Shown one piece after another: positions 5,022 through 60,381 of a stretch of 64,000 bases of DNA (the stretch's first letter is position 1; each line of letters starts with the position of its first letter). Origin of the DNA: Blattabacteriaceae bacterium (lineage in GTDB: Bacteria > Bacteroidota > Bacteroidia > Flavobacteriales > Blattabacteriaceae); contig DASWCM010000003.1 of the NCBI GenBank assembly GCA_036390115.1, positions 101,111 to 165,110 of the forward strand, read 5' to 3'. The translations under genes and the position numbers were made by a program. The notes beneath the pieces were generated by a model that saw only the letters and a program-made list of their open reading frames with translations, was not told the DNA's origin and ran no database searches.

Positions 5022-5359
5022 CAGATAATACAGGAGCTAAGATTGCGTTAATTATTCGTGTATTAGGGGGAAGTAAAAAAAGATATGCCTCTATAGGAGA
5101 TTCCATCATTGTTTCTGTGAAAGAAGCTTCTACTAAAGGAAGTGTAAAAGAAGGGCAGGTTTCTAAAGCTGTAATTGTTAGGATTAAAGAAAAAATACGA
5201 AGAAGTGATGGATCTTACATTAACTTCGATGATAATGCATGCATACTTTTACATGCTTCAGGCGAAATGCGAGGAACTCGCGTATTTGGACCAGTAGCTA
5301 GAGAATTAAGGAAAAAAGAATATATGAAAATTATTTCCCTAGCTACAGAAGTCTTTTGA
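4991..5359 (+). CDS. rplN: 50S ribosomal protein L14
   Basis: [17 protein letters not shown] start; 122 aa. Confidence 0.97.
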
Positions 5360-5375
5360 CTAAAAAATATTTTCA

Positions 5376-8023: not shown

Positions 8024-8482
8024 ATGAATTTAAGTAGTTTAAACCAAAGCAATAGAAAAAATAAAAAAAAAAGGCTTGGAAGAGGCCAAGGTTCTGGAAA
8101 AGGGGGAACATGTACTAGAGGCCATAAAGGAGCAAAGTCACGTTCAGGAAATTCTAGAAAATTAGGCTTCGAAGGAGGGCAGATGCCCTTGCATAGGAGA
8201 ATACCAAAAGTAGGATTTAAAAAAATTTCTAAAAAAAAGTCTACCGTAATTAATATAGATTTTTTACAGTACCTGGTAGATCAAGGAAGAATTAAGGAAG
8301 GGAAAAACGTATCGAAAAATGTTTTATTAGATTATGGAATAATAGGAAAAAATGATTTTATTAAAATTTTGGGTAGAGGTGAATTAAATGTAAGACTTAC
8401 AATATCAGCACATAAGTTTAGTCATAAAGCTGGAACAGCTATTAAAATTTATGGAGGAAAAATTCTATTTGACAATGTTTGA
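8024..8482 (+). CDS. rplO: 50S ribosomal protein L15
   Basis: I take the internal Met of ORF 7946..8482 as the start: MNLSSLNQSNRKNKKKRLGRGQGSGKGGT is the typical L15 N-terminus. The ATG at 8024 was verified in the sequence. Confidence 0.92.
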   Translation: MNLSSLNQSNRKNKKKRLGRGQGSGKGGTCTRGHKGAKSRSGNSRKLGFEGGQMPLHRRIPKVGFKKISKKKSTVINIDFLQYLVDQGRIKEGKNVSKNVLLDYGIIGKNDFIKILGRGELNVRLTISAHKFSHKAGTAIKIYGGKILFDNV

Positions 8483-9815
8483 ATACTTTTTCAGTTCTAT
8501 TAAAAAGATTTGTAAAATAGAGGATCTCCGCTTTAAGATAGGAATAACTTTAGGGTTTCTTCTAGTTTACAGATTTAGTTCTTATGTTCCACTTCCTGGA
8601 ATAAATCCACAAGGAGTTATTCATTTTATGGAAAATGGAAATACTGGGGAAAAAGGGCTACTGCAAATTATCTATTCGTTTTCTGGAGTAGCTTTTAGTA
8701 GAGCATCTGTTTTGGCTTTAGGAATTATGCCTTTTATATCTTCCTCCATTTTTGTACATTTAATTTCTTTAATTTTTCCTTCTCTTAAAAAAGATGGGGA
8801 GAGTGGCCGAATTAATAGGATTATACGGATGGTAACAATAATAGCTTGTTTTATACAAGCTCCCACTTATTGTGATATTCTTACCACAAAATTTATTCCT
8901 TTTTCCTATGCACCTAAAGCTTATCTCTTGGATCTTTCTATTTCTATGGAAAAAGTTTTTTTTTGGGTTATTTCTATCGTAGTTCTTACAGTTGGCACAT
9001 TTTTCACTATTTGGATAGGGGAAAATATTACGGATAAAGGAATAGGAAATGGGGTTTCTTTGATTATTATGTCTGGTATTGTGGACCGATTTCCTAACGC
9101 TCTTTATACTGAAATAGTTAGTCATTTAGGAGCAAGGGGAGGATTATTTTTTTTGTTTTTTGAATGTTTGTTATGGTTGCTGGTTGTTTGCTTTTGCGTA
9201 ACGTTGATACAGGCTGTAAGGAAAGTCCCCGTTCAATACGTTGGTCGAATTGAACAGAATTCTATACGTTTAATGACTAGACATTATATACCATTAAAGG
9301 TCATTAGTGTAGGCGTTATGCCAATTATATTTGCTCAGTCTATTATGCTTTTTACGATGATTCTTTCTGCTAATTTAAGAGAAACATTTAAAAATGTTTA
9401 TGGGTTTTGGTATAATTTAGTCTTTTCTATTTTTATTATATTTTTTACATTTTTTTATACAGCTGTTACGATTCCAGTTCATCAGATTGCAGATGATCTT
9501 AAAAGGGATGGAGGACATATTCCCAAAGTGAAACCTGGGAAAGAAACTTTGGATTATTTGGATTATATTTTGGCAGTAGTAACTATTCCTGGATCATTTT
9601 TACTAGTTATTATTGCTATACTCCCTTCTTTTATTGTTAAAATAGGGGTTACTAATAATTTAGCTTTATTCTATGGTGGGACTTCCCTACTAATCATAGT
9701 AGGATCTCTTTTAGATACCATGCAGCAGATTGATCCCTATTTTTTAAATGATCATTATGATCATCTTCTTAGCTTGTATCATCAAAAATTATGGATAGGA
9801 ATAAAGAATACATAG
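8475..9815 (+). CDS. secY: Preprotein translocase subunit SecY
   Basis: Multi-pass membrane protein with [34 protein letters not shown] and [10 protein letters not shown] motifs. The start at ATG 8475 is preferred over 8451. It follows rplO. Confidence 0.93.
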
Positions 9816-12934: not shown

Positions 12935-13776
12935 AGATGTTTTTGCCCTTAAAATATTAGATTATACCCACTATTGAAGTGGATGGAAGCAGTGTGAATG
13001 AAATAATTGCTCCATAAATAAAGGGTCTCAAAGTCTTAGAGATCAATTAATGATTGATATTGACGTAACAGAAAATAAAAGTAGTCTTGGAGCTAATGCT
13101 ATTCTTTTCATTAGCTGATGCTAAAGCTGCCTCAGCTTATACTGTTACCATGATGAATATAGTTCCTCCTATTTATTTTCAATAATTTCTGATTGTTCCA
13201 GTATCTGCTAATAGCTTTTCGTAAACTGTTAGAATGGGAGTAACTCTTACGTAGTCTCAGTTGTAGATGAAGGTGGATTTTAATCAAAATTTGATAGTAC
13301 TGAAGAAGCATTAGATGCATAATCCATTGAAAAATCAGGATATAAACCTGTTGAAGAAATAATGCTTGCTTTAGATTGCGCTTCTTCCGAATTTTATTTA
13401 AACGTAAAATATGATTATACTCGTTTTGAAGGGGAAAAAGGTTGTTTACGTTCTAGTGAAGAACAAGTTAATTATTTAATTAAGCTTATTGAAAAGTATC
13501 CAATAATCTCTATTGAATATGGAATGGATCAAAACGATTGGGAAACTTTTAACTGAAAAAAATAGGAAAAAATGTCCAATTAGTAGGGGATGATCTATTC
13601 GTTACAAATCTTTCTAGATTAAAGGAAGGTAGGGTCATAATTATACGAACGATAATGTCTCATCGTTCTGTGAATATTATACGATATATGATTTATCGGT
13701 AGCTTTTAAAACTGGATCAGCTTCTCTCGCATGGCGAAGTATAATCAATTGATAATAATTGAATAAATGCTAGCTT
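12921..13776 (+). pseudogene. eno: Enolase pseudogene (multiple frameshifts, stops and deletions)
   Basis: Enolase-like peptides appear in collinear order but in different frames, separated by stops. They are MSKIKDVFALKILD (ATG 12921), PTIEVD, NKSSLGANAILFIS then [63 protein letters not shown] (ORF 13362..13556), VQLVGDDLFVTN (13574, another frame), MSHRS, and MAKYNQLIIIE stop (13776). Confidence 0.88.
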
Positions 13777-13870
13777 TTTGGGGCTTTGCTTCATTTCTGA
13801 CAGTAGCTTGCTTGTGTAGCTACAAAAAAAATAAGCAAATTAAAGTAAATGTATTAATTTTTCTAAAATT

Positions 13871-14941: not shown

Positions 14942-15837
14942 ATATAATATCAATATTCGGTCCTACAGCTATAGGCAAGACGTATCTTTCAATTTTACTA
15001 GCTAAAACCTTAGGGTTTGAAATTATTTCCTGTGATTCTAGGCAATTTTATAAAGAGCTTGTAATTGGAACAGCTAAACCTTCAAAAGAAGAACTTAAAA
15101 TAGTACCCCACCATTTCATAGAACACTTAAGCGTGTATCAAACCTATAATGCAGGAAGTTTTGAAAGAGATGCTTCAGAAAAGCTAGATGAAATCTTTTC
15201 AAGATCCAATGCAGTATTCGTTGTAGGTGGATCATGTTTATATGGAAAAGCTCTACTTGAAGGTTTAGATATTTTTCCAGAAGTATCTAGCGAAATAAAA
15301 AACTTATGGATTTCATTCTTTCAAAGAAAGGGATTGCATTTTTTACAAGATTCTCTTAAATGGAGAGATCCATGTTATTATAAAACGGTAGACTTGAATA
15401 ATCCACATAGGATGATTCGTGCTTTAAGTGTTATTGAATCTAGTGGGCGTCCGTTTTCTTATTTTCTAAAGAAAAGAAGAAGGAAAAACATAAAGGTTAT
15501 AAAAATTGGTCTTATATTGCCTAGGGTAGAACTTTATAAGAGAATAGATCAAAGAGTAGACAAAATGATAAAAAATGGTTTACTTGAAGAAACGCGTATA
15601 TGGTCTAATTGTAGGCATTTAAATGCCTTAAAAACTATAGGATATAAAGAATTTTTCGATTATCTAGACGGTCATTACGACTTTTATCAGGCTGTAAATG
15701 AAATAAAAAAAAATACTAGGAAATACGCGAAGAAACAAATTACCTGTTTAAGAAAAGATTCTTCTATTCTATGGTTTTCTCCTATAGAATACAAGGAAAT
15801 TTTGAATTTTATTCTAAAAGCACTTTATTCTCTCTAA
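14938..15837 (+). CDS. miaA: tRNA dimethylallyltransferase
   Basis: I take the internal Met as the start ([16 protein letters not shown]-loop). It overlaps the aroC stop as ATGA. Also contains [18 protein letters not shown]. Confidence 0.92.
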
Positions 15838-17145
15838 TCTTAATTTACATTTAAATACGTTCTTGGGATAAAGAGAATCCCAAGAAATACTCATCCAAGT
15901 AAAAATTGGATTTCCCACAATATGGTCTTCGGGTACAAACCCCCAAAAACGAGAATCCAATGAATTATACCAATTATCTCCTATCATGAAATAATAGTTT
16001 TGATTAAAAACATATTCAGAAGTTTCCATGTTGTTAATATAAAATTTTTTTCCTTTTATTTTTAAGTAGTTATTTTCATATATATTTATAATGTCTTTAT
16101 ACAGGTTGATATTATCATAATTTAGCATTACATGATCTCCTTTCTTAGGAATTTTTAACGGCCCGTAAAAGTCTAAATTCCAACTAAAATTTTTATTTCC
16201 TAAAAATTTTTGACTTTTGTATATTGGGAGAATATATCTGTTTACAGATCCTACTTCATTAAGGGTTCTGATTAATTTAGCTTCTAATTCTGTAAGCATT
16301 ATTTTGTTTAGAGACCTTAAGGTACTAAGAATATATAAATATTTTCTTTTTACATTTTTGGACAATCTTTCTTTTTTACCATTTATAAATAAAATAGATC
16401 TACGTATTTCTACAGTCTCTCCCGAAATAGCGATACATCGTTTTATATAATGATCTTTTCTATCTATCTCGGTATAAGATGAATGGGGAAAATTGAATAC
16501 GATAATATCAGAACGTTTAATGTTAGTTAAAGATGGAATACGCAGGTAGGGTAATCTGATCCACTTTAAATAAGTACGAATGCCAAAAAATGGTAATCTG
16601 TTATGCAAAAGTGGTAAACTTATTGGAGTTATTGGTAATCGTAATCCATAGTGGATTTTACTTACAAAAATAAAATCTCCAACTAATAAAGTTTTCTCCA
16701 TAGAAGAGGTTGGTATGGTAAATGGCTGAATAAGATATATGTGAATAAAAGATGATAAAATTATAGAAGAGAGAAAAATTGAAAAAATGGGCTCTTTTTT
16801 TGGAGCAAAAAAATTTATATTATTATTATAGTTAAAATAAAAAATATATAAACCTAATGTTAGGATTACTAGAATATAGTCTCTTTTCCTAGTTTTTCCA
16901 AAACATCGAATAAAATCAATCCATAATAGAGGGAACATTACTGTGCAAATAATTGGGACAAAGAAAATTGGAACCCAATAAATTGGACGATTAACAATTT
17001 TTAGTAATATAAAAATATTGTAAAAAGGCAAAGCAGCTTCCCAAGATTTTCTTCCAGCTTTTTTATATAACCTATAAGTTCCCAGAAAATGAATTCCTAG
17101 TATGATAAAAAAGACAAGAATATAATTACTCATAATCAAAAACAT
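15814..17145 (-). CDS. lepB: Signal peptidase I (long Bacteroidota-type)
   Basis: 443 aa. PFTIPTSSMEKTLLVGDFIFVSK (catalytic Ser box), YIKRCIAISGE, GDNWYNSLDSRFWGFVP, and an N-terminal YKKAGRKSWEAALPFYN segment. Confidence 0.9.
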   Translation of the reverse strand: MFLIMSNYILVFFIILGIHFLGTYRLYKKAGRKSWEAALPFYNIFILLKIVNRPIYWVPIFFVPIICTVMFPLLWIDFIRCFGKTRKRDYILVILTLGLYIFYFNYNNNINFFAPKKEPIFSIFLSSIILSSFIHIYLIQPFTIPTSSMEKTLLVGDFIFVSKIHYGLRLPITPISLPLLHNRLPFFGIRTYLKWIRLPYLRIPSLTNIKRSDIIVFNFPHSSYTEIDRKDHYIKRCIAISGETVEIRRSILFINGKKERLSKNVKRKYLYILSTLRSLNKIMLTELEAKLIRTLNEVGSVNRYILPIYKSQKFLGNKNFSWNLDFYGPLKIPKKGDHVMLNYDNINLYKDIINIYENNYLKIKGKKFYINNMETSEYVFNQNYYFMIGDNWYNSLDSRFWGFVPEDHIVGNPIFTWMSISWDSLYPKNVFKCKLRLERIKCF

Positions 17146-27489: not shown

Positions 27490-27496
27490 CAAACTT

Positions 27497-27870
27497 TTGA
27501 AGATATTTTTTTATTATGTTTCCTTTCTTCTCTTTTTTTTTAGAGCTTCTCCGCCTAAATCAAATAATTTTGATCCATCTAAGGGCATCTTAGATAATAT
27601 AAAAGATTCTCATGAATGGCATCTTTTTGTAAAAGAAAAGATAATTTATCTTCCGATAATTTTATGGTATAGAGGGTTTCGTATTTTTCTTTCGTCATGA
27701 TTTAATCATGGAAATAAATTCATAGAAGGCAATCATTGCTACTACAGATTCTTTAAAGAAAGAATCTACAAAACTAATTATTACAGCTGCTTAGTTTTCT
27801 ATTTACCCAAAACCCACATTGAAATATTGGCAATCTTTTATTTTTACAGCTTTATCTTCTTTGTGGAATG
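27497..27870 (+). pseudogene. atpB: ATP synthase F0 subunit a remnant (in-frame stop, then most of the gene deleted)
   Basis: ORF 27497..27700 has a TTG start and reads ..FDPSKGILDNIKDSHEWHLF..IIYLPIILWYRGFRIFLSS. A TGA at 27698 is followed in the same frame by FNHGNKFIEGNHCYYRFFKERIYKT. From memory this matches the conserved N-terminal segment of Bacteroidota AtpB (..DSH....LPLPVILW..GL..F.SSKF.HG....GNH....IYKT). The C-terminal roughly 250 aa are absent. Boundaries are approximate. Confidence 0.6.
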
Positions 27871-27879
27871 ACTCTTGTG

Positions 27880-27995
27880 GAACATCATCAGCTAGAAGAG
27901 TATAATCGCTACAGAAGCTTCTGTCAGGCATTTATGATCTCTTAGATATGTTCTTAAATAGCAATTTATGTTATGGATTTGTTCCGTTGGTTTAA
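27880..27995 (+). pseudogene. atpE: Possible ATP synthase F0 subunit c remnant
   Basis: There are short frame-broken matches to the c-subunit core. IIATEAS resembles AIARQPEAS. SG.. and FMIS.. in neighbouring frames resemble MIIAAAL. The fragment lies between the atpB and atpF remnants as in atpBEFH. Evidence is weak. Confidence 0.35.
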
Positions 27996-28340
27996 TTATT
28001 TGGCAAAAAATTATTTTTATTATTTTATTAGTTTTACTAAGGAGATTTGCTTGGAGTATCTTATAGAAATTATTGAAAAACGCGAAAAAAAATATTCTCT
28101 GACTTAGAGAGACAAGCTCTTAAAAAAGAGAAAATTTTAAGAGAAGCTTGCATAGAACGAGATTTTCTTTTAAAAGAGGCTCTCTCCATAAAAGATAGAG
28201 TTAGAGGAAAAATCCCAAATTGAAAGGATGCTTGAACAAGCTATATAGGTTATAAAAACCGATAAATCTGTTGCTAGAGTTTTCGTCCTTGAAAAAGTTT
28301 GTTGTGGAGAGTTGTGTAGAAGAAGATTATGTCTGTGTGT
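27996..28340 (+). pseudogene. atpF: ATP synthase F0 subunit b remnant (frameshifted, with stops)
   Basis: LIIWQKIIFIILLVLLRRFAWSIL then a stop (frame of tgg at 28001). A different frame, starting at 28083, reads RKKIFSDLERQALKKEKILREACIERDFLLKEALSIKDRV. This matches the Bacteroidota AtpF pattern FWQ..IF..LL.LL.KFAWKPIL...RE..I...L..A......L.EA..ERD.ILKEA..IK. Confidence 0.6.
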
Positions 28341-28379
28341 AGGTCCTTCACGATAAGCCTGTCAAAGAGCAATCGATAT

Positions 28380-28893
28380 TATAGTCCTAATAGTATGATA
28401 GGAGGAGATACAGCCTAGCAATTGACATTATCCTTAATAAAAAAAGACTTTATGAAAGTGGTAATCCCATATATTGTACATAAGTCAAAAAGGTACTGGT
28501 AAAAACTCTTATAGATCATGGGGGGGATGGACAAATTTTTCTTGAGTCAGATTTGTTCAATGCTGTACAGCAATTAATGAAGGAACTAGGGAGAAGCTCA
28601 GATTGCATCGATGAAAAAACTATCTGGAACATTTAAATTGGATGAGGGATTTTCCAAATTTAGTTCTGATTTAGATACCACAACTTTATCAATAATTCAT
28701 AAAGGTCGTTGGAATGTATAAATCAAGCAATTAATTCACTAGATAAAATATCTGATCAAATAGCACTTGTATATGCGAGTACAAAAAATCATTATTCGTT
28801 GTATTTTCCTATAATAAAGGATTATTTGGAACTTTTAACACTTCCATCTTCTGGATGAAGGAAAATTTTTTAAAGACAAAATCTTCCAAATAA
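28380..28893 (+). pseudogene. atpH: Possible ATP synthase delta subunit remnant
   Basis: Collinear weak matches: RRRYSLAIDIIL resembles the N-terminal [40 protein letters not shown] resembles the central L..LL.EN.R...L..I...F segment. The C-terminal FNTSIFWMKENFLKTKSSK stop resembles Y(D/N)ASV...L..LK..L. All are broken by stops. Confidence 0.3.
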
Positions 28894-29358
28894 ATTCATA
28901 TAATGATATAGGAAAAAAAGGAATATATTTTAAAAAAAAATATAAAATATTAAACGAAAATAAAATTTAGAAAATATCTCTTCTGTAAAAGAAACTTACG
29001 CAAAAGTTTTTTAACATGGATTTTTTATCAATATATTTAGTGTATAATACACCAAAAAGTCTGAAATATCACATTATAAAGCAATGCTACTTTATCATCT
29101 GGAGCAGATATTAACTTTCTTTTTGAACCTTCAAAAGAAAGAATTTTTGATTATATTATATCAATGATATTAAGAATAAATTTTATCAAAGCTTTTTTGG
29201 AATCAACTGTATAGGAAAATACAGCTTGAATGACATCCATGAATATAGCAACTGAAAATGCCTCATATTTAAAATATGAGCTAACATTGAGATATAACAA
29301 AATAAGACAAGAAGCTATTACCAAAGATATTTTATAACTTATTGGAGTAACAAAAAAA

Positions 29359-30318
29359 ATGATGAGAGTTCTAACTGGGATCCAAAGTACTGGAACCCCA
29401 CATATCGGTAATTTACTTGGAGCTATTTTACCAACCATTAAAATGACCAAGATTTATTCAAATCCTTCTTTTATACTGATCGCTGATTTACACAGTTTAA
29501 CGAATATTAAAGATTCAGAAATTATAAAAGAGAATACTTATCGAGTTTTATCAGCTTTTTTAGCCTTTGGTTTACCCTTGGATAAAGTAGTCTGTTACAA
29601 ACAATCTGATGTGCCAGAGGTAACTGAGTTAGCTTGGTATTTGAGTTGTTTTTTTTCTTATAAACGTCTGACTTTATCTCATTCTTTTAAAGAAAAGTAT
29701 AACCAAGATATAAGCGTAGGACTTTTCTCTTATCCCCTATTGATGGCTTCTGACATTTTACTTTTTAATGCTAAAATAGTTACCGTAGGAAAAGATCAGT
29801 TGCAACATTTAGAGATTACTCGTAATATCGCTGATCGTTTCAATAGAAAAATGGGAAAAATTTTTGTCCTACCTGAGGCTAAGATACAAGAAGAAGCGAA
29901 ATCTGTGCCTGGTACAGATGGATATAAAATGAGTAAATCCCTAGGTAATGCTATTGATATCTTTTGCTCTAAAGAGGATTTAAAAAATCAGATTATGAGT
30001 ATACAAACTGATAGTAAATCTTTAAAAGATCCTAAGGATCCTGATGTTGACAGGATTTTTTCTATTTATAAATTGCTCGCTTCTAAAGAAGAAGTGGAGG
30101 AAATGAGAGAACGTTATTTAAATGGTGGGTATGGATATAGTCAAGCAAAGAAAGTCTTGTATGAACTTATTTTAAATAGATTTTCTTTTGAACGAAAAAA
30201 GTTTCATATTTTTCTAAAAAAAATAAATTATCTAGATGATATTCTCCACTTTGGAGCTAAAAAAGCTAGAAAAATTGCCATTAATACGATATGCAAAGTT
30301 CGTAAAGCTTTACTTTAG
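29359..30318 (+). CDS. trpS: Tryptophanyl-tRNA synthetase
   Basis: 319 aa. GIQSTGTPHIGNLLG (HIGH) and KMSKS (YKMSKSLGN) class I motifs. Confidence 0.95.
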   Translation: MMRVLTGIQSTGTPHIGNLLGAILPTIKMTKIYSNPSFILIADLHSLTNIKDSEIIKENTYRVLSAFLAFGLPLDKVVCYKQSDVPEVTELAWYLSCFFSYKRLTLSHSFKEKYNQDISVGLFSYPLLMASDILLFNAKIVTVGKDQLQHLEITRNIADRFNRKMGKIFVLPEAKIQEEAKSVPGTDGYKMSKSLGNAIDIFCSKEDLKNQIMSIQTDSKSLKDPKDPDVDRIFSIYKLLASKEEVEEMRERYLNGGYGYSQAKKVLYELILNRFSFERKKFHIFLKKINYLDDILHFGAKKARKIAINTICKVRKALL

Positions 30319-30331
30319 TTTATTAAAGAAC

Positions 30332-30830
30332 ATGGATAGAGAAAGAATGATAAAATTTTTAAAGGAAATTTATATATCCCGGGTAGTAGATTAATATTGT
30401 AGATAATCAATCTCTTATTGATATTTTTTTTTAGGAGATTGTGCTTGCTTAGAAAGCGCAAAAAAAAAACTTTAATATGATATTCCTAAAGCAAGGAACA
30501 CAAAAATAAAAATTAATACAGTAATTACTCATCAGAGTCTGGAGTAAAAGTATATAATACTTCTGAGTAAATATTCCATAACTTATCTAAAATGGGTGTG
30601 ACGTTTATAGGCCTTCTATTCCTATAATGTTTAATTAGGAAAATGTTTTCTATCTTTAGATAAGGAAAAGAAAAAATAAAACCTTATGAAAATTATGGAG
30701 TAAAGATGTTATCTTTAGGTTTTTTGCTCATATTAGCAGTTTTATGACGTGCTATTAAAGCATTGAAAGAGATTCTTATTGGGGTTTTAGTTGTATGGGG
30801 GCTAAAGGAGCTATACTTGGAATAGGATAA
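30332..30830 (+). pseudogene. pdhA: Possible pyruvate dehydrogenase E1 alpha remnant (tentative)
   Basis: Stop-riddled fragments lie at roughly the spacing expected for E1 alpha. MDRERMIKFLKEIYISRVVD (30332) resembles Y..M...R.FE. VITHQSLE (30521) resembles ITAYR.H. GKCFLSLDKEKKK (30638) resembles GGSMH.F.KE. YENYGVKMLSLGFLLILA (30685, shifted frame) resembles YGG.GIVG.Q..LG.G.AFA. ALKEILIGVLVVWGL resembles L.E..N.A.LW.LP. Identities are low. Confidence 0.35.
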
Positions 30831-31056
30831 AATATGGCTTTTTTAAAAATAAAAGAAAAAATATTTTACATTTGGAAAAAATGGGCTAAAAAACTTTCTA
30901 TTGAACTTGTCTCTCTTCATGCCAATAAAGTTTAAAAAAAAATTTTTAAAAATATTTTACTAGGCTAAAAAGCAATAAATTTATTTTTTTCTTTCTAAAA
31001 AGAGATCTTTTTGCAACCTTTCACACAATTCGTACATTTGAGTAAATGAAAGAAAA

Positions 31057-32694
31057 TTAGAACACTTTATTCTTCAAACAAACAGTTTTGTTAAACACCA
31101 GTTTACCCTTTGAGCTATCAGGATCAACACAAAAATAACCTAAGCGTTGGAATTGGTATTTATCCCCCTCTTTAGCCAACATTAAAGAGGGTTCAGCGTA
31201 ACCATGTACAATTTTTAGAGAATTTGGATTTAAAAAATCCATAAAGTCTCTTCCCTTATTTCCTTCTGGATTTTCTTCTAAAAAAAGATTATTATATAAA
31301 CGTACTTCTATTTCAAAAGAATGCTTTATAGAGACCCAATGCAAAGTTCCTTTAATATTTCTATTCTTTTTTATTACACTACCTGATTTCCTATTAGGAT
31401 CATACAAACAGTGGACTCTTACAATTTTTCCATTAATATCTTTAACGGCTTTAACTGCTTTTATAATATAGGCATTTTTTAGCCTAACTTCTTGATCTAG
31501 AGTTAAACGAAAAAATCTTTTCGAAGCATTTTCCATAAAGTCATCTCTTTCTATAAATAAAAACTTTGAAAAAGGAATTTTTTCTGTCTGATTTATTTCC
31601 CCAGAAACCCATTCCACATAATTATCTGGTAAATTATCTATTACCAACTCAATAGGATCTAGAACCACCATAACTCTAGGCGTGATTTCGTTCAAATGTT
31701 CACGAATAAAAAATTCGAGTAAAGATAGGTTAATTAAGTTATCCCGTTTTGCCACCCCTATTCTATTACAAAAATCTCTTATAGATTTAGCTGTATATCC
31801 TCTTCTTCTTAAACCTCTTAAAGTTGGCATCCTAGGATCATCCCATCCACTGACTACCCCTTCTTCCACTATACGATGAAGCTTTCTTTTACTCAAAAGA
31901 GTATAACTTAGGTTAAGTCTAGAAAATTCTATTTGCGTAGGACGGATTTGGTCTTCTTTTTTAGGGATCTGATCCAGATACCAATCATATAGTGGCCTGT
32001 GATTTTCAAATTCAAGAGAACATAAAGAATGGGATATTTTTTCGATATAGTCTGATTGACCATGTGCCCAATCATAAGTTGGATAAATGCACCACTTATT
32101 TTTAGCATGGTGATGTTCTTTTTTAATAATTCGATACATGATTGGGTCACGCAAATTCATGTTAGAAGAACTCATGTCTATCTTTGCTCTAAGTACATAA
32201 CTTCCTTCTTCAAATTCCCCTGATTTCATCCTTTTAAATAAATTTAGGTTTTCTTCTATAGAACGAGACCTAAAAGGACTTGAAATTCCAACTTCAAAAG
32301 GCGTCTTTCTATTATAGTTAATAATATCTTTTGTTTGTTCCTCCACGTACGCCTTGCCAAATTTTATAAGAGATTTACTCCATTTGTATAAATCTTCGAA
32401 ATAATCGGAAGCGTAACATTCCTTATACCATTTAAAACCTAGCCATTGGATGTCTTTTTTAATTTCTTCTACATAATAATTTTTCTCTTTTGTTGGATTG
32501 GTGTCATCAAACCTCAAATTTACGGGTACTCTATATTTTTCCCCAAATCCGAAATTTAAACAAATCGCCTTAGCGTGGCCTATATGAAGGTAACCGTTAG
32601 GTTCTGGAGGAAAACGAAAGTGAAGCTTTTCTTTAGGGAACCCCTTTCTTAAATCTTCTTCTAGAATTTTTTCAATGAAGTTTTTTTCATTCAT
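31057..32694 (-). CDS. glnS: Glutaminyl-tRNA synthetase
   Basis: 545 aa. RFPPEPNGYLHIGHAKA (HIGH), LSKRKL (KMSKS-like) and RFDDTNP. Confidence 0.95.
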   Translation of the reverse strand: MNEKNFIEKILEEDLRKGFPKEKLHFRFPPEPNGYLHIGHAKAICLNFGFGEKYRVPVNLRFDDTNPTKEKNYYVEEIKKDIQWLGFKWYKECYASDYFEDLYKWSKSLIKFGKAYVEEQTKDIINYNRKTPFEVGISSPFRSRSIEENLNLFKRMKSGEFEEGSYVLRAKIDMSSSNMNLRDPIMYRIIKKEHHHAKNKWCIYPTYDWAHGQSDYIEKISHSLCSLEFENHRPLYDWYLDQIPKKEDQIRPTQIEFSRLNLSYTLLSKRKLHRIVEEGVVSGWDDPRMPTLRGLRRRGYTAKSIRDFCNRIGVAKRDNLINLSLLEFFIREHLNEITPRVMVVLDPIELVIDNLPDNYVEWVSGEINQTEKIPFSKFLFIERDDFMENASKRFFRLTLDQEVRLKNAYIIKAVKAVKDINGKIVRVHCLYDPNRKSGSVIKKNRNIKGTLHWVSIKHSFEIEVRLYNNLFLEENPEGNKGRDFMDFLNPNSLKIVHGYAEPSLMLAKEGDKYQFQRLGYFCVDPDSSKGKLVFNKTVCLKNKVF

Positions 32695-36654: not shown

Positions 36655-36741
36655 TATATATGGTAACGATTTTTTGCTAAACGAATATAAATTGATTTAA
36701 TCTAAGGTAATATGGGAATTCTTGAAAAGAGAAAACATTTT

Positions 36742-36981
36742 ATGTTTCTTTATGTATTTTTGGCGGTAATTCTTATTTTTACTTGTTTACTACTTACCGT
36801 AGTGATAACAATACAAAATCCTAAAAGAGATTCTCTTTCTTATTCTTCTTTAGGAGATAAAAGCATTCAAATATTCGGGGTTCAACGTGTTATAAATTTT
36901 TGGGAAAAGCTTACTTGTATTTTAGCGATTTTAATTTTTATTTTTATTTATTTTTTTAATAAAATTTTAAAAAACAGATAG
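36742..36981 (+). CDS. secG: Preprotein translocase subunit SecG (probable)
   Basis: Small two-TM protein directly upstream of groES. VVITIQNPKRDSLS resembles the flavobacterial SecG motif V.QNPKGGGLS. ..FGVQRVINFWEKLTCILAILIF resembles GV.K..DFL...TW.LA. The start could also be 36712. Confidence 0.65.
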   Translation: MFLYVFLAVILIFTCLLLTVVITIQNPKRDSLSYSSLGDKSIQIFGVQRVINFWEKLTCILAILIFIFIYFFNKILKNR

Positions 36982-49179: not shown

Positions 49180-49398
49180 ATGTCTAAAATTTGTCAAATA
49201 ACAGGAAAACGATTGATTATAGGAAATAGGGTTTCTCATTCCAATAAAAAGACGAAGCGTTATTTCAGTATTAACATAAGTAAGAAGAGATTTTTCCTAA
49301 CATCTGAGGATCGTTGGATTACTCTGAAAGTTTCAGCTTCAGGGATAAAGACCATAAATAAGGTGGGTATAGAGAAAGCTTTGAAAAAAAAAACGTAA
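49180..49398 (+). CDS. rpmB: 50S ribosomal protein L28
   Basis: [11 protein letters not shown]...[12 protein letters not shown] start. Confidence 0.95.
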
Positions 49399-49738: not shown

Positions 49739-50533
49739 ATGAGTATTTATGGAAATTTATTCTCATCTGCAAAAAATCTTTTAAATAGAGGCCTATAAAA
49801 CTAGGATTCTTTTTTTTTTCTAATTTGGAAAAAATTATAATAGGAAAATCTAAGATAGAGGAAAAATTCCTAGAGTAGGTGTTGATTTATTCTGATGTTG
49901 GAGTAAAGACTAGTCTAAAAATCATTTAAAATATAAAAAATATCGCAGAAAAAGATAAATACTTGAACCTTGAAGACATTCAAGGTCTTCCTTAAGGAAG
50001 AAGTCTATTTGCTTTTGTAAGAAAAAGAAATTCCTAGCAAAGGGTCATTATGATTGTTGGGAGTGTTCAATTACTGGAAAATTAGCCTGGAAGTTTAAAA
50101 AATCCAGGCTTAAGATTTGTCAGATCGTGCAGAAGTTCCTTTAATAAAACATAATATGGGATCTGATCCAGCTTCAGTAGCTTTTGATACGCTCAGCTAA
50201 ATATAGAAAGGATGATCTAGTTTTAATAAATACGGCAGTACGGTTGCATAATAAAGTAAATCTTCTGAAAGAGCTTTCTAAAATTAAACGAGTTATGCAA
50301 AAATTGATTCCTAAAGCTCCACAGTAGGTAATGCTAGTCTTAGATGGAACTATCGGACAGAATTCTTTTGAACAAGTGTACTGGAGTTTATTCTTTAGCA
50401 ATCACAAAACTAGATGGCTCTGCTAAGGGAGGAATTTTTGATTAAGATACCGATAAAGTATCTTGGAATAGGAGAGGGACAACCTTTCGATAGAGATTTG
50501 TTTATTGATTCACTTTTCAATAAAGAATATTAG
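49739..50533 (+). pseudogene. ftsY: SRP receptor FtsY pseudogene
   Basis: Collinear FtsY peptides appear in several frames, broken by many stops. They are MSIYGNLFSSAKNLLNRGL stop, GKSKIEEKFLE, SDVGVKTSLKII stop, GSDPASVAFDTLS stop, ITKLDGSAKGGIFD stop, and IKIPIKYLGIGEGQPFDRDLFIDSLFNKEY stop. The GxxGxGKT and DTAGR regions are unrecognisable. Confidence 0.88.
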
Positions 50534-50650
50534 TTGTCCTAATCCTAATAATAAGGAAAAAATTAGAGTAATTATAGACACTTTATTAAATTCAGAAGAA
50601 AATTTTTTCTCTTCTTTCGTTAGAATAACTTTTTTAATATGAATTTCCAT
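50510..50650 (-). CDS. Hypothetical 46-aa ORF with C-terminal hydrophobic segment (may be noise or a ghost fragment)
   Basis: My translation of the reverse strand is MEIHIKKVILTKEEKKFSSEFNKVSIITLIFSLLLGLGQLIFFIEK. No family recognised. Confidence 0.15.
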   Translation of the reverse strand: MEIHIKKVILTKEEKKFSSEFNKVSIITLIFSLLLGLGQLIFFIEK

Positions 50651-50800
50651 AGGAAAAAATAATCTTAAAAAGATAAATTGATAGATATTCCTAGGATTTT
50701 TTTTTCATTAACTTTAAGCCTCAAGGCTCCAAAAACTATTAAAGTATGGTATATTTTAGCTACTAATCTTGCTGCTAAAGTATTCTTACCATTTTTTATA

Positions 50801-51097
50801 TCACTTTTTATATCTATTATTTAAGTTTAGAACTTCCATACTTAAAAGACCTACAGAGGCAGCAGGTAGAAAAAGATCATATTCAAAATATATGAGAAGA
50901 TAGATAAAAAGTTCCATTAACGTAACTAATCCAAAAAAAATTAACACAGAGACATTTACCACATATTGATAAGGGCCTATAGTGTATTTTATTGCTCCTA
51001 CATTACCAAAAATGGTAAAAGATTGGGATCTTAAAATTGAAGAATAAATAATAGATATAAAAATTAATAAGTAGATATACTTTATCATTTTTTGCAT
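50801..51097 (-). CDS. Hypothetical hydrophobic protein, 98 aa (possibly a gene remnant)
   Basis: ORF-track protein with a signal-peptide-like N-terminus (MQKMIKYIYLLIFISIIYSSILRSQ) and a further hydrophobic stretch. No family recognised. It sits in an otherwise eroded region. Confidence 0.3.
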   Translation of the reverse strand: MQKMIKYIYLLIFISIIYSSILRSQSFTIFGNVGAIKYTIGPYQYVVNVSVLIFFGLVTLMELFIYLLIYFEYDLFLPAASVGLLSMEVLNLNNRYKK

Positions 51098-51218
51098 AAC
51101 TATTTTTTATCCACGTAGTCATTAGAAAAATTGTGATAGCTGACCAAAAAAAACTTTACACTTAGCTTTCCTCCTACCTAAAGGTAGGATCAAATCTTTC
51201 ATAGCTTAAATAGTTAAG

Positions 51219-56614: not shown

Positions 56615-58515
56615 TTAAATATTTTTAAAAAAATTAATTTCTTTTCTTAGAAAGTCTAGAAAGAGACTTATCGAAATAGATCCCAAATTTCCTATTATAT
56701 GTCGGCGTATAGAGATGATACCTTTTTCTTGTTCAAAATCTCCAATTACTCCTAAAATAGGTATTTTATAGTTCTCTGCGTCTCTAATTTTTTTTGATAT
56801 ATTTTCATTTCTCTCATCCAAGAGAGCCCTAACACCATAAATATATAGCAAATCTAAAACTTTTTTTGCAAATTTAAGATTTTTTTTTTTATTGTTAGCA
56901 ACATAACTTGGGTTGGTGCAAGCCAAAGTGGTAGATTTCCTACCGTGTGTTCCAAAAGAATAGCTGAAAATCTCTCCAAAGAACCAAAATGTGCACGATG
57001 AATTATAACTGGTCGATGAAACTTATTATCTATTCCTTTATAAGATAAATCAAAACATTCAGGTAGATTGTAGTCCACTTGGATGGTACCTAATTGCCAA
57101 TTTCTACCTAGAGAATCTTTAACCATAAAATCTAGTTTAGGTCCATAGAAAGCTGCTTCTCCATATGCTAAAATAGTTTTTAAGTTTTTCATTCTTGAAG
57201 AGTGAATAATAGCTTCTTCTGATTTTTTCCAATTTTCTTCAGAACCTATATAAGAATTTCTCTTGTCTCTTAGAGATATTTTTGCCGTATATTCTTTAAA
57301 TCCAAAGACCCTAAATACATAAAAGATCATATCAATCACTTTTTGAATTTCAACTGACAACTGATTTTGTGTGCAAAATATGTGTGCATCATCTTGAGTA
57401 AAGGATCTAGTACGAGAAATCCCATGTAACTCTCCGCTTTTTTCATAACGATATACCGTACCGAATTCAGCTAAACGTTTTGGCAAATCTCTGTATGAGA
57501 ATTTTTTATTTCGATAAATTTCACAGTGATGTGGACAATTCATTGGCCTTAAAAGAAATTCCTCTTCTTTATTAGGAGTCCTTATTGGTTTAAAAGAATT
57601 TTTTCCATACTTTTTCCAGTGCCCTGAAGTTTCATAAAGTATTTTATGCCCAATATGGGGCGTGGTCACCATTTCATACCCAGATTTTTTTTGCAACTTT
57701 ATTAGAAAATTTTCCATAAGTTTAAGTAAGTCAGTACCTTTAGGAAGCCATAATGGCAATCCAAGTCCTACCCGTTCAGAAAAAATAAATAAACCAAGTT
57801 CTTTACCTAATTTCCTATGATCACGCTTTTTAGTTTCCTCCAAAATAAGAAGATACTCTTCTAAATATTCTTTTCTAGGGAAAGAAATACCGTAAATACG
57901 GGTAAGCTGTTCATTTACCTTCCAATAGGATCCTGATGTATTGATAATTTTTACTGATTTTATCAATCCAGTATGCGGAATATGTACGCCCAGGCATAAA
58001 TCTGTGAAATCTCCATAAGTGCAAAAAGTAATAACTTGAAAACTTTCGATTAATTCAATTTTATATTTGTTTCCTTCATAATGTTTTATAGCTTCATTTT
58101 TTGAAAATGTATCACTTTTAAAAGTGTTTGATTTTAGAGCGTTTTCCAGAATTTTTTTCTCAATCTTATGGAAATCTTTTAAATGAGCTTCTCCAAAATC
58201 TATATCATAGTAAAACCCATTATCAATGGGATTACCAATATGTAAATTTGCTTTAGGATAAAAATTTAAAAGAGCTTGAGTTAACAAATGAGCTGAAGAA
58301 TGCCAAAAAGCCTTTTTACCTAGGGCATTATCCCATGTATAAAAAGATAATTCAGAATCTTCGAAGATTTCTATATCAAATTCAACTTGTTGTCCGTTAA
58401 GACTGGCTGATAAAACTCTTTTTGAAAAACTGTGACTAATACCTTTAATTATTTTAGCGGGAGTTATTCCTTTGGAATACTTTCTAACCTTTCCATAAGT
58501 AAAACGAATCATCAT
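56615..58515 (-). CDS. thrS: Threonyl-tRNA synthetase, reading frame interrupted in an A11 tract (ORFs 56854..58515 and 56615..56926)
   Basis: The N-terminal ORF carries the TGS, editing and class II catalytic core (..HRPVIIHRAHFGSLERF..LWLAPTQVMLLTIKKK) and stops 8 codons after the tract. The anticodon-binding domain (NLKFAKKVLDLLYIYGVRALLDERNENISKKIRDAE..KIPILGVIG) continues in another frame. The frames switch at the plus-strand T11 run 56880..56890. Confidence 0.9.
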
Positions 58516-58534
58516 ATTTTTCGAATTATTTTCT

Positions 58535-59280
58535 TTATATACTGAAATTTTTCAAAAGATCATCTACTTCTTCGATAGAATTTCCAGATCCTTTGGAAAT
58601 ACGAATATTGCGATTTTCATTTATGAGTTATGGATTTTTACGTTCTTTTTCCGACATAGAGTATATAATTGATTCGGTCTTTATCCCCTTTTAAGTCAAT
58701 TTAATGAAAAATATTTCCCATACCCATCACATATTTTTAACCTTATGAATTTGACTTAAAAAATCATTAAGATCAAATTTATTTTGATCAATCTTCCTTC
58801 TTATGCTTGTTCTTTACTAAATTACTCATTAACTTTTTACACCATAGAGATTACATCCTCCATTACAAGGAGGCTTTTCGCTATTATAGCAGTATAGAAA
58901 ATATCTAAATACTCTTACAGTTCCAATAAACTTTATTGGCTTTTTATAAATGGAACAAACTGTGAGTATAGCATCATACTCCGTTAAAATACAGTACATC
59001 TTTAAAATTTTTTGCAGTATTAGCAGAATCTTGTCCATTCATAGCATCTACAATAAAAAGGCTTTCGGATGGACGAATCGCTTTATAAATACGCTCCATT
59101 TCATCCATCATTACTTTCAATCTTCCAGCTGGATCAATAATTAGCACGTCATAATTACCTTCTTTAGCAAAAGCGACAGACTATCCAAGAACTTTTATTT
59201 TCTGAATAGCTGCTGGTCTGTTGTCGATAGAAGTGTTTTTTTTCTTTTTTTTCTAACTTCCATTATACTTTATTAAACAA
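58535..59280 (-). pseudogene. ffh: Signal recognition particle protein Ffh pseudogene (5'-truncated, frameshifted)
   Basis: Reverse-strand translation gives several Ffh peptides. KKNTSIDNRPAAIQKIKVLG then a stop. FAKEGNYDVLIIDPAGRLKVMMDEMERIYKAIRPSESLFIVDAMNGQDSANTAKNF, where DTAG reads DPAG. LTEYDA..KKPIKFIGT (ORF 58829..59038). DFLSQI, and RNIRISKGSGNSIEEVDDLLKNFSI then a stop. The frames are broken by stops, and the N-domain and P-loop region are missing. Boundaries are approximate. Confidence 0.85.
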
Positions 59281-59493
59281 CTCTAAGTAATTCTCATCTT
59301 TACAATTAAGAATAAAATATTCAAAAATATCTGTGTTAATACAGAATTTCCAACTTATTTTCCTACCCTAATTTGGTGTACTTAATTTCTTGCCTTAAAT
59401 AAGTAATATTGTAGCATTGATGTAGAGCTTTTCTATTTTTCAGATAAAAATTAGTTTATCAATAACATAAAAGATTCTATGTAGTGTAGGCAT

Positions 59494-60381
59494 TTAAAAT
59501 CTGGGGCTTTTTATTTTTCTGAATATTTCAAGTACTTTTTGTCCAATTTCTGAAGGAGAAACTACTATATGTATTCCGCATTTTATCATTATTTTTATTT
59601 TGGATTTAGCAGTATCTTCTTCTCCCCCAACAATAGCTCCAGCATGTCCCATGATTCTTCCTTTTGGAGCTGTTTGGCCAGCTATGAACCCAATAACAGG
59701 TTTCTTATTACCTATTTCTCTAACCCCTATCGCAGCGTCTTTTTCCATTTTTCCCCCAATTTCCCCTATAATAACAATCACTTCGGTTTCATCATCTTCC
59801 ATAAATAACGAAACAATTTCTTGCATACTGCTACCAATAATAGGATCTCCCCCAACTCCAACAGCTGTTGATATTCCAAGTCCAGATGCCACTATTTGAT
59901 CAGCTGCTTCATAAGTTAGCGTTCCAGATTTTGACACTATCCCAATAGTACCTCTCTCAAAAATAAATCCAGGCATAATTCCTACTTTGGATTCTCCAAC
60001 TGTTATTACACCTGGACAATTTGGTCCAATTAGTCTAGATTTTTTAAGGTATCTTTTCACCTTAATCATATCAGAAATAGGAATCCCTTCCGTAATACAA
60101 ACAATAAGGGAAATATTAGATTCTGCCGCCTCCATAATAGCATCAACTGCAAATGCAGCTGGAACAAAAATAACACTAACATCTGCGTTAGTTTCTCTAA
60201 CAGCTTTCTCCACTGTATCAAATACAGGTATCCCTAGATGTTTTTCTCCCCCTTTTCCTGGAGTCACTCCCCCAACAATAGAACTTCCATATGCAAGCAT
60301 TTGCTCAGAATGAAAGCTTCCTTCTTTTCCCGTGAATCCTTGTATAATAATTCTAGAATTTTTATTAACTAGTATGCTCAT
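59494..60381 (-). CDS. sucD: Succinyl-CoA synthetase alpha subunit
   Basis: 295 aa. IIQGFTGKEGSFH, LIGPNCPGVI, SKSGTLTYEA and MGHAGAIV (catalytic His). Confidence 0.95.
   Translation of the reverse strand: MSILVNKNSRIIIQGFTGKEGSFHSEQMLAYGSSIVGGVTPGKGGEKHLGIPVFDTVEKAVRETNADVSVIFVPAAFAVDAIMEAAESNISLIVCITEGIPISDMIKVKRYLKKSRLIGPNCPGVITVGESKVGIMPGFIFERGTIGIVSKSGTLTYEAADQIVASGLGISTAVGVGGDPIIGSSMQEIVSLFMEDDETEVIVIIGEIGGKMEKDAAIGVREIGNKKPVIGFIAGQTAPKGRIMGHAGAIVGGEEDTAKSKIKIMIKCGIHIVVSPSEIGQKVLEIFRKIKSPRF

What the first reader, a model, noticed from the sequence alone, without database searches (positions are those of the whole stretch)
58535..59280. SRP54 homolog ffh is a truncated, frameshifted pseudogene
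Reverse-strand translation shows the G-domain and M-domain of Ffh broken by stops and frameshifts. The DTAG box has mutated to DPAG. The N-domain and P-loop are missing because sucD begins only about 200 nt upstream. Parallel decay of ffh and ftsY implies loss of the whole SRP pathway rather than a random hit. This raises the question of how SecY-dependent inner-membrane proteins (SecY itself, the MscS-like channel, LepB) are targeted.
Basis: partly seen in the sequence, partly recalled or inferred. Interest (0 to 1): 0.7.

Follow-up and report, generated by a model that had tools for sequence, protein, structure and literature searches.

The report
Decayed SRP genes in tiny symbiont
A tiny-genome Flavobacteriales symbiont, known only from metagenomes, has reduced both protein genes of its signal recognition particle pathway (ffh and ftsY) to dead remnants, while its closest relatives keep them intact; this kind of loss is already known in extremely reduced symbionts.

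Summary
Window 58524..59256 (- strand) is an ffh remnant. Against the intact ortholog of the closest relative, it lacks codons 1 to about 120 (N domain and P-loop). It also carries nine internal deletions, no insertions, and five or six nonsense substitutions. DTAG has become DPAG, and the G4 NKLD box is deleted.

ftsY (49739..50537, +) is decayed to the same degree. The spacer is byte-identical in two independent public assemblies, so the lesions are real.

It is an argS remnant, fused to ffh by a deletion of about 1.8 kb at an A-rich tract. ahpC is gone entirely.

Three related lineages were recovered from metagenomes, at 3-7% nucleotide divergence. All keep ffh, and the two whose ftsY locus was seen keep ftsY. 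Two lineages show purifying selection on ffh; one shows relaxed constraint.

In the window lineage both genes evolve almost uniformly across codon positions. SecY, SecG and LepB remain intact, whereas ATP synthase, ubiA, eno and argS are also decaying.

SRP RNA, YidC and SecA could not be checked, because only about 80 kb of a genome of at least 202 kb was readable. Verdict: a real, well-dated SRP loss and a new member of a known kind. Interest is moderate.

The parts
58524..59256 (-). ffh (SRP54 homolog) pseudogene remnant, corresponding to codons ~118-421 of the 424-434-codon intact orthologs
   Evidence: tblastn. Pfam SRP54 and SRP_SPB fragments. DNA alignments to L088, L169 and L172 ffh with the lesion list.
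59124..59135 (-). Mutated G3 motif: GAT CCA GCT GGA (DPAG) where relatives have GAT ACG GCT GGA (DTAG)
59236..59435 (-). argS pseudogene remnant (codons ~5-26 and ~51-102 of a 572-604-codon gene). Its 3' end is an A-rich tract (59236..59256) that is also the junction with ffh.
   Evidence: tblastn. blastn to L088 and L169 at 95% and 73% identity.
49739..50537 (+). ftsY (SRP receptor) pseudogene remnant, downstream of rpmB-rpmG-DUF4295
   Evidence: tblastn. Alignments to the intact 301-aa FtsY genes of L088 and L172: 10 deletions, at least 3 nonsense substitutions, P-loop deleted.
50229..50243 (+). Mutated ftsY G3 motif, NTAVR instead of DTAGR
50528..51100 (-). ubiA/menA-type prenyltransferase pseudogene (a polytopic membrane protein). 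Intact in L088 and L172, between the tRNA and ftsY.
   Evidence: 55% aa identity, stops in frame. (14 deletions against L172, 85.6% nt identity).
59494..60381 (-). sucD, intact. Upstream neighbour of the decayed ahpC-argS-ffh block.
56615..58515 (-). thrS, downstream neighbour. Intact except for one frameshift in an A11 tract (~56880..56890).
8451..9815 (+). secY, intact, with full-length Pfam SecY match
36712..36981 (+). secG, intact
15814..17145 (-). Signal peptidase I (lepB-like: DUF5684 + Peptidase_S26), intact ORF
27490..29358 (+). ATP synthase operon remnant: atpG fragment with in-frame stops, plus faint atpF and atpA traces
   Evidence: ATP-synt gamma E=1e-22; ATP-synt_B and ATP-synt_ab_C weak

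Best explanation
**What it is.** The region is the dead remnant of ffh in an eroding, tiny-genome Flavobacteriales symbiont. Its partner gene ftsY, about 8 kb away, is dead too, so this lineage no longer makes the protein components of the bacterial SRP targeting pathway.

**Shown**
- Both genes carry many frameshifting deletions and nonsense substitutions.
- Both have lost GTPase motifs.
- Both have accumulated substitutions almost evenly over the three codon positions on this lineage's terminal branch.
- The closest sister lineage, at 5.5% nucleotide divergence, keeps both genes under purifying selection.
- Decay is deletion-biased: ffh has ten deletions and no insertions. It includes one deletion of about 1.8 kb at an A-rich tract that removed most of argS and the 5' third of ffh.

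**Inferred**
- Selection on SRP relaxed because its clients shrank. The polytopic membrane protein UbiA/MenA decayed on the same branch, and the ATP synthase operon is also a wreck.
- The few remaining SecYEG clients probably reach the translocon without SRP. Possible routes are direct ribosome-SecYEG/YidC affinity, SecA, and slow translation.
- Slow translation has an experimental precedent: in E. coli it suppresses complete SRP loss (PMC7844537, PMC8299109). Mitochondria offer another precedent, having dispensed with SRP (PMC8321541).
For: - **Homology and lesions:** for ffh; for ftsY.
- **Independent assemblies:** identical.
- **Synteny:** relatives have intact genes at the orthologous positions. 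L088 has ffh of 394 aa and ftsY of 301 aa. L169 has ffh of 434 aa. L172/L173 have ffh of 424 aa, ftsY of 301 aa and intact ubiA.
- **Relationships:** the four-point distances group the window with L172.
- **Terminal-branch substitutions, codon positions 1/2/3:**

| Gene and lineage | Pos 1 | Pos 2 | Pos 3 |
|---|---|---|---|
| Window, 8 intact genes (2,498 codons) | 2.5% | 1.8% | 5.4% |
| Window ffh | 5.1% | 3.7% | 6.8% |
| Window ftsY | 6.2% | 3.7% | 5.0% |
| L172 ffh | 0.5% | 0% | 2.7% |
| L172 ftsY | 1.6% | 0% | 5.0% |

- **No other ffh found:** a search with the intact clade Ffh returned only the three syntenic orthologs above 60% identity, and none was seen in the samples that carry the window organism.
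- **Genetic code:** TGA is an ordinary stop (10 of 62 genes), so the stops are not a recoding artefact.
- **Sec machinery and clients:** SecY, SecG and LepB are intact. ubiA and the atp operon are decayed.
Against: - Only about 80 kb (the window plus flanks) of a contig of at least 202 kb could be read. A second ffh/ftsY pair, SRP RNA, YidC, SecA and SecE are therefore untested.
- The protein search has imperfect recall. One search missed the L169 and L172 Ffh proteins that later found.
- Substitution counts are small: 34 on the ffh branch and 36 on the ftsY branch.
- The 'shrinking clientele' cause and the SRP-independent targeting route are inference. It is not known whether the atp operon is intact in the SRP-positive sisters.
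Confidence: 0.92

Rival explanations
1. The lesions are sequencing or assembly artefacts, and the gene is really intact.
For: The source is metagenomic assembly. Homopolymer length does vary between samples at one poly-A tract elsewhere in the window.
Against: The 978-nt spacer is byte-identical in two independent assemblies. The ftsY remnant is identical in a third. The lesions are mostly 7-63-nt deletions, a 1.8-kb deletion and point nonsense changes, not homopolymer slips. The substitution pattern is neutral-like.
Confidence: 0.01
2. An intact ffh, with or without ftsY, exists elsewhere in the same genome. The pathway would then be retained and this locus would be a dead duplicate.
For: About 60% of the contig of at least 202 kb was not readable. 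The protein search has imperfect recall.
Against: The remnant sits at the single orthologous position occupied by ffh in all three relatives. ftsY at its own orthologous position is dead too. No further clade Ffh was found. Gene duplicates are very rare in genomes of 200-300 kb (general knowledge).
Confidence: 0.04
3. The fragments still function, either as separately translated pieces or after rescue by transcriptional slippage. Candidates are the 57-aa G-domain ORF at 58974..59147 or a stand-alone M domain.
For: Gene callers annotate the 57-aa ORF with an SRP54 Pfam hit. Slippage rescue at poly-A tracts is known in endosymbionts (Tamas et al. 2008, as cited in PMC3971599) and is plausible for thrS here.
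Against: The G1 P-loop and the G4 box are physically deleted, and G3 is mutated. The M-domain region has three or more stops and three frameshifting deletions. Positions 1 and 2 evolve at about twice the background rate. Most frameshifts are multi-nucleotide deletions outside homopolymers.
Confidence: 0.02
4. SRP function is still needed but is supplied from outside, by a host-encoded or co-symbiont-encoded targeting factor imported into the symbiont.
For: No direct evidence. Host and co-symbiont complementation is a recurring theme for symbionts of this genome size (PMC3971599; PMC13099577).
Against: No host or partner is known for this organism. Nothing in the window bears on import. SRP-free targeting has simpler precedents (PMC7844537, PMC8299109, PMC8321541).
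Confidence: 0.07

Closest known systems
Loss of ffh and ftsY in extremely reduced insect endosymbionts (Carsonella, Portiera; retained in their relative Evansia)
   Same: Tiny AT-rich symbiont genomes in which the SRP protein genes are dispensable, while a close relative still keeps them (PMC4122945).
   Different: In those genomes the genes are simply absent and SecY is gone as well. Here both genes are caught as recognisable remnants, datable against sister lineages at 3-7% divergence. SecY, SecG and LepB are still intact.
Candidatus Walczuchella monophlebidarum and relatives (Flavobacteriales symbionts of giant scale insects, about 0.3 Mb)
   Same: Similar GC (32.6%), similar size, and many pseudogenes, including atpABG. 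They retain the 2-oxoglutarate-to-succinate segment and men genes, have Sec present, and have lost some aminoacyl-tRNA synthetases (PMC3971599; PMC12188211).
   Different: The window clade is not demonstrably Walczuchella. None of its proteins carries an NCBI source or name. After the clade itself, the best ThrRS hits are a 'Flavobacteriales bacterium Tduv' MAG at 65-66% and Weeksellaceae at about 63%. Neither paper's main text mentions ffh or ftsY.
Experimental SRP-null E. coli rescued by suppressors that slow translation
   Same: Cells keep SecYEG and survive without Ffh when translation is slowed, which lengthens the targeting time window (PMC7844537; PMC8299109).
   Different: That is a laboratory result in a fast-growing free-living bacterium. 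Here the loss is natural and fixed, and no compensatory change has been identified.
Mitochondria, which lost bacterial SRP in most eukaryotes
   Same: An endosymbiont-derived compartment that inserts a small set of membrane proteins without Ffh or FtsY (PMC8321541).
   Different: Mitochondria encode almost only membrane proteins and tether their ribosomes to the membrane. This symbiont still encodes mostly soluble proteins.

Membership tests
Functional Ffh / SRP54 GTPase | N-terminal four-helix N domain (Pfam SRP54_N) | tested here: not met
   No SRP54_N match in the remnant, whereas P0001, L169 and L172 have it. Codons 1 to about 120 are deleted.
Functional Ffh / SRP54 GTPase | Complete G domain with G1 P-loop (GxxGxGKT), G3 DTAGR and G4 (T/N)KxD | tested here: not met
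   The Pfam SRP54 match covers only profile positions 74-175 of 196. G1 is deleted, G3 reads DPAGR, and the NKLDGD box is removed by a deletion that aligns as 20 nt + 12 nt or as one 32-nt gap.
Functional Ffh / SRP54 GTPase | M domain (SRP_SPB) in one open reading frame continuous with the G domain | tested here: not met
   SRP_SPB similarity is present (E=9e-15) only after stops are removed and frames are joined. The M region has at least 3 stops and deletions of 25, 8 and 1 nt.
ffh-derived pseudogene (orthologous remnant) | Same genomic position as the intact gene in close relatives | tested here: met
   It lies immediately upstream of thrS, as in L088, L169 and L172.
ffh-derived pseudogene (orthologous remnant) | Nucleotide-level homology to the intact ortholog, with disabling lesions | tested here: met
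   92.5% identity over 751 nt to L172 ffh, 10 deletions, and about 5-6 nonsense substitutions.
ffh-derived pseudogene (orthologous remnant) | Loss of purifying selection (substitutions spread evenly over codon positions) | tested here: met
   5.1/3.7/6.8% against a background of 2.5/1.8/5.4% on the same branch. The sister L172 shows 0.5/0/2.7%. Counts are small (34 substitutions).
Functional FtsY (SRP receptor) | Intact NG domain ORF with P-loop and DTAGR | tested here: not met
   The GVNGVGKTT region is deleted, the G3 motif reads NTAVR, and there are 10 deletions and at least 3 nonsense substitutions.
Complete loss of the SRP pathway | No SRP (4.5S) RNA gene in the genome | tested here: inconclusive
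   No Bacteria_small_SRP hit in the window at gathering score or at E<=5, nor in about 16 kb of flanks or the relatives' loci. Only about 40% of the known contig was searched.
Complete loss of the SRP pathway | No second ffh or ftsY copy anywhere in the genome | tested here: inconclusive
   No further clade Ffh turned up in the 5.8-billion-protein search. That search has imperfect recall, and the whole genome could not be scanned.
Retained Sec translocon | secY, secG and signal peptidase I intact; secE, secA and yidC present | tested here: inconclusive
   SecY (full Pfam model), SecG and LepB are intact in the window. secE, secA and yidC are not in the readable 80 kb.

The most novel reading that the evidence does not exclude
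This clade offers a natural before-and-after series for SRP loss in cells that still use SecYEG.
- One lineage has ffh and ftsY under purifying selection (L172).
- One lineage has conserved ffh, but its ftsY locus was not recovered (L169).
- One lineage has an open ffh that is shortened and evolving almost neutrally (L088).
- One lineage has both genes dead (the window).

All four lie within about 7% nucleotide divergence. If the full genomes confirm that SecYEG and YidC persist and 4.5S RNA is gone, comparing them could show what makes SRP dispensable. Candidates are prior loss of polytopic clients such as ATP synthase Fo and MenA/UbiA, loss of the tunnel-exit proteins uL24 and uL29, and compensatory changes in SecY, YidC or uL23. 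That would address in nature the question the E. coli suppressor screens address in the laboratory.
Probability: 0.35. Interest if true: 0.55.

Novelty: new member of a known kind. Interest (0 to 1): 0.4.

Why it matters
SRP is nearly universal and is essential in E. coli. Cases where it is lost while the Sec channel is kept show what the pathway is really needed for. Here the loss is caught in progress, in an undescribed symbiont clade with SRP-positive sisters only about 5% diverged. That makes the order of events and any compensatory changes directly testable once the full contigs are compared. For annotation, it also shows that the small 'SRP54' ORF called in public assemblies is a pseudogene fragment, and that the spacer hides a second dead essential gene, argS.

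Tried and rejected
1. A blastn of the spacer against E. coli genomes gave no hit, as expected.
They returned only free-living Bacteroidota at 58-70% identity, and none of the low-GC loci inspected had clade synteny. Both single-use scans were therefore spent without finding clade members. The clade was found instead through protein searches and exact look-ups.
3. I first read the thrS 'split' as an in-frame stop and considered stop-codon reassignment. I rejected this. It is a frameshift in an A11 tract, and TGA ends 10 of 62 genes.
4. I first thought L088 was the window's sister because both share the thrS frameshift. Distances show ((window, L172), (L088, L169)), so that frameshift is homoplasy at a slippery tract.
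5. An exact look-up of IF-1, meant to reach the relatives' secY and ribosomal operon, returned only the window organism's own contigs.
6. Literature searches for the sample accessions found nothing, so host and habitat remain unknown.
7. Candidatus Insignibacter (0.86 Mb) was considered as the source and rejected on genome size.
8. Rfam at a permissive E-value gave no SRP RNA candidate.

Full report
**1. What is at the coordinates**

The window has about 31% GC and is densely packed with housekeeping genes. Gene calls from public assemblies that carry exactly the same DNA give the annotation. Between sucD (59494..60381, -) and thrS (56854..58515, -) lies a 978-nt stretch with no long ORF.

Three-frame translation of the minus strand shows recognisable Ffh peptides scattered over all three frames and interrupted by stops. 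Examples are RPAAIQKIKVLG, YDVLIIDPAGRL, ESLFIVDAMNGQD, KPIKFIGT, FDLNDFLSQIHKVKNM and GSGNSIEEVDDLL.

- Pfam finds SRP54 GTPase positions 74-175 of 196 and SRP_SPB positions 1-84 of 91. It finds no SRP54_N and no P-loop segment.

**2. The lesions are not artefacts**

The same organism occurs in at least three public assemblies:
- Logan SRR10360616, contig of 147 kb.
- JGI 3300012208, Ga0137376_10000001, 202 kb.
- JGI 3300012200, Ga0137382_10000001, 155 kb.

The 978-nt spacer is byte-identical in the first two. Over 14.5 kb the JGI copy differs from the window by one base. In the third sample the ftsY region differs by one SNP just upstream of the remnant and one poly-A length change at the rpmB-rpmG junction. 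TGA terminates 10 of 62 genes, so the standard code applies and the stops are genuine.

**3. Relatives with intact genes**

Searching the protein collection with the stop-free remnant found a 394-aa Ffh (P0001) at 58% identity. Further searches with ThrRS and with an intact clade Ffh found two more lineages. Exact look-ups gave their loci.

| Locus | Source | Gene order and state |
|---|---|---|
| L088 | JGI 3300073944 | sucD-ahpC-argS-ffh(394)-thrS ... rpsU-tRNA-ubiA-ftsY(301)-DUF4295-rpmG-rpmB |
| L169 | Logan ERR3200793 | sucD-ahpC-argS(604)-ffh(434)-thrS(633) |
| L172/L173 | Logan SRR4142417, 202.5 kb; JGI 3300027718, 250 kb | sucD-[decayed ahpC and argS]-ffh(424)-thrS(629) ... ubiA-ftsY(301) |

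Over eight shared genes (7,494 sites) the window differs from L172 by 5.5%, from L169 by 6.9% and from L088 by 7.4%. L088 and L169 differ by 3.3%. The four-point condition gives ((window, L172), (L088, L169)).

None of these proteins carries an NCBI source or name. Outside the clade, the best ThrRS hits are Flavobacteriales MAGs (one of them 'Flavobacteriales bacterium Tduv') at 65-66% and Weeksellaceae at about 63%. The organism is therefore an undescribed Flavobacteriales lineage with a genome of at least 200-250 kb. Its host is unknown.

**4. Anatomy of the spacer**

DNA comparison shows the following:
- 59435..59372 matches argS codons ~5-26 at 95% identity.
- 59365..59236 matches argS codons ~51-102 at 73% identity.
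- 59256..58524 matches ffh from about codon 118 to its end.
- ahpC is absent.
- The argS and ffh matches overlap in an A-rich tract (about 59256..59236). This tract is the junction of a deletion of about 1.8 kb that removed the rest of argS together with the ffh N domain and G1 P-loop.

Against the nearest intact ortholog (L172), the ffh remnant has the following:
- Internal deletions of 10, 63, 9, 32, 8, 7, 25, 8 and 1 nt, and no insertions.
- Nonsense substitutions at codons ~303, 308, 315, 359 and 386, plus a TGA at a deletion edge.
- ACG->CCA in the G3 motif, turning DTAG into DPAG (59135..59124).
- Loss of the NKLDGD G4 box.
- 92.5% identity over the 751 nt that remain alignable.

The upstream 240 nt is a second pseudogene.

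**5. ftsY and neighbours**

Downstream of rpmB-rpmG-DUF4295, where relatives have ftsY, the window has a remnant at 49739..50537 (+). It carries:
- Ten deletions of 2-55 nt.
- Three or more nonsense substitutions.
- Loss of the GVNGVGKTT P-loop.
- DTAGR changed to NTAVR.
- 92.3% identity over 763 nt to L172.

The adjacent ubiA/menA-type gene, intact in L088 and L172, is also decayed. It has 14 deletions, in-frame stops and 85.6% identity. Three genes within 10 kb thus show similar degrees of decay on the same terminal branch.

**6. Selection analysis**

I counted substitutions unique to each terminal branch, by codon position.

| Gene and lineage | Pos 1 | Pos 2 | Pos 3 |
|---|---|---|---|
| Background, window (8 intact genes, 2,498 codons) | 2.5% | 1.8% | 5.4% |
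| Background, L172 | 0.9% | 0.8% | 2.6% |
| Window ffh | 5.1% | 3.7% | 6.8% |
| Window ftsY | 6.2% | 3.7% | 5.0% |
| L172 ffh | 0.5% | 0% | 2.7% |
| L172 ftsY | 1.6% | 0% | 5.0% |
| L169 ffh | 0.9% | 0% | 1.4% |

The window's ffh and ftsY are close to uniform across positions. Positions 1 and 2 run at about twice the background rate. L172 and L169 show clear purifying selection.

By rough interpolation at position 2, both window genes have been free of constraint for roughly half or more of the terminal branch. The counts are small (34 and 36 substitutions), so this is only indicative.

L088's ffh is still an open frame of 394 aa. It has lost 57 nt of the G-M linker and helix M1 and has a shortened C-terminus. 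Over its full length it shows 1.8/2.3/3.1% against a background of 1.0/0.8/2.6%. This points to relaxed constraint in a second lineage.

**7. Rest of the pathway**

SecY (full Pfam model), SecG and signal peptidase I are intact in the window. No SRP RNA was detected in:
- the window at gathering score or at E<=5;
- about 16 kb of flanks, or L088;
- L169, L170 or L172.

Because ffs was not located even in the SRP-positive relatives' loci, its absence from the window says little. YidC, SecA and SecE are not in the readable 80 kb. Tool restrictions prevented reading the rest of the contig.

The search with intact clade Ffh returned only the three syntenic orthologs above 60% identity. The places shown in the look-up of P0185 are in other samples, with orthologous but diverged flanks. 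A second copy in the window genome is therefore unlikely but not formally excluded. One search missed proteins that one search found, so recall is imperfect.

**8. Explanation**

*Shown:* ffh and ftsY are orthologous pseudogenes, fixed in the population. They are decaying by a strongly deletion-biased process in a genome that is eroding elsewhere too. The window also holds an ATP synthase operon remnant (27490..29358), an eno remnant (12935..13870), and the ubiA and argS remnants. ahpC has been deleted.

*Inferred:* SRP became dispensable as its main clients disappeared. These were polytopic inner-membrane proteins such as UbiA/MenA and the ATP synthase Fo subunits. The few remaining SecYEG substrates probably reach the membrane without SRP. 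Precedents:
- E. coli lacking SRP is rescued by mutations that slow translation and widen the targeting time window (PMC7844537, PMC8299109).
- Mitochondria generally lack SRP (PMC8321541).
- Carsonella and Portiera lack ffh and ftsY, while Evansia keeps them (PMC4122945).

The ribosomal tunnel-exit proteins uL29 and uL24 are also missing from their canonical slots in the S10-spc cluster. These proteins are frequently lost in tiny genomes (PMC7782861). Whether that loss preceded the SRP loss is unknown.

**9. Comparison with known systems, and novelty**

Gene content and GC resemble Walczuchella: 0.31 Mb, 32.6% GC, atpABG pseudogenes, Sec present, and missing aminoacyl-tRNA synthetases (PMC3971599, PMC12188211). 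Sequence relationships do not place the clade with any named symbiont.

SRP loss in highly reduced symbionts is known, so this is a new member of a known kind. Its added value is the fine-grained comparative series and the retention of the Sec core. Interest is moderate, about 0.4.

Noticed in passing
window 59236..59493 (-): argS (arginyl-tRNA synthetase) survives only as about 200 nt, and ahpC is completely deleted. Relatives L088 and L169 have both genes intact between sucD and ffh. The sister L172 also has both decayed, so the argS loss probably predates the ffh loss. Whether another argS exists elsewhere in the genome is unknown.
   Followed up: partly
window ~56880..56890 (-), within thrS (56615..58515): thrS is broken by a single frameshift in an A11 tract, separating the anticodon-binding domain. 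The same frameshift is in L088 but not in L169 or L172, so it is homoplasy at a slippery site. It is a candidate for rescue by transcriptional slippage, as described for other endosymbionts.
   Followed up: partly
window 27490..29358 (+): An ORF-free 1.9 kb holds ATP synthase operon remnants: an atpG fragment (Pfam E=1e-22) with in-frame stops, plus faint atpF and atpA traces. F1Fo ATP synthase appears to be lost, as reported for Walczuchella.
   Followed up: partly
window 12935..13870 (+): Enolase pseudogene: Enolase_C (E=1e-24) and Enolase_N fragments in broken frames. Gene callers annotate only a 64-aa piece.
   Followed up: partly
window 50528..51100 (-): The ubiA/menA-type prenyltransferase gene is a pseudogene with 14 deletions and in-frame stops. 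It is intact in L088 and L172. The 98-aa ORF at 50801..51097 is a fragment of it.
   Followed up: yes
window 4734..4746 and 5359..5376 (+): rpmC (uL29) and rplX (uL24) are absent from their canonical slots between rplP-rpsQ and rplN-rplE; only 11-16 nt separate the neighbours. Both proteins line the ribosomal tunnel exit, where SRP and trigger factor dock. It is not known whether the SRP-positive relatives also lack them.
   Followed up: partly
L088 10001..11185: The ffh of relative L088 is still open (394 aa). It has lost 57 nt of the G-M linker and helix M1, and it accumulates substitutions almost evenly across codon positions. It may be a second, independent SRP loss in progress.
   Followed up: partly
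window ~49384..49393 (+): Poly-A length polymorphism (A10 against A9) between samples at the rpmB-rpmG junction. One assembly therefore calls a fused L28/L33 protein.
   Followed up: partly
window 30319..31056: An ORF-free 740-nt stretch between the tRNA-synt_1b (class Ib aminoacyl-tRNA synthetase) gene at 29359..30318 and the tRNA-synt_1c (GlnRS/GluRS-type) gene at 31057..32694. It has no Pfam hit in any frame. It may be a fully eroded gene.
   Followed up: partly
whole window; loci L001, L002, L083, L088, L169, L172, L173: The organism and three close relatives occur only in metagenome or SRA assemblies, on contigs of 147-250 kb, with no NCBI-named counterpart. This appears to be an undescribed clade of tiny-genome Flavobacteriales symbionts whose host is unknown.
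   Followed up: partly
window 9791..9815 (+): The secY ORF overlaps the start of infA by 25 nt. A secY-infA fusion has been reported in some Walczuchella genomes (PMC12188211).
   Followed up: no
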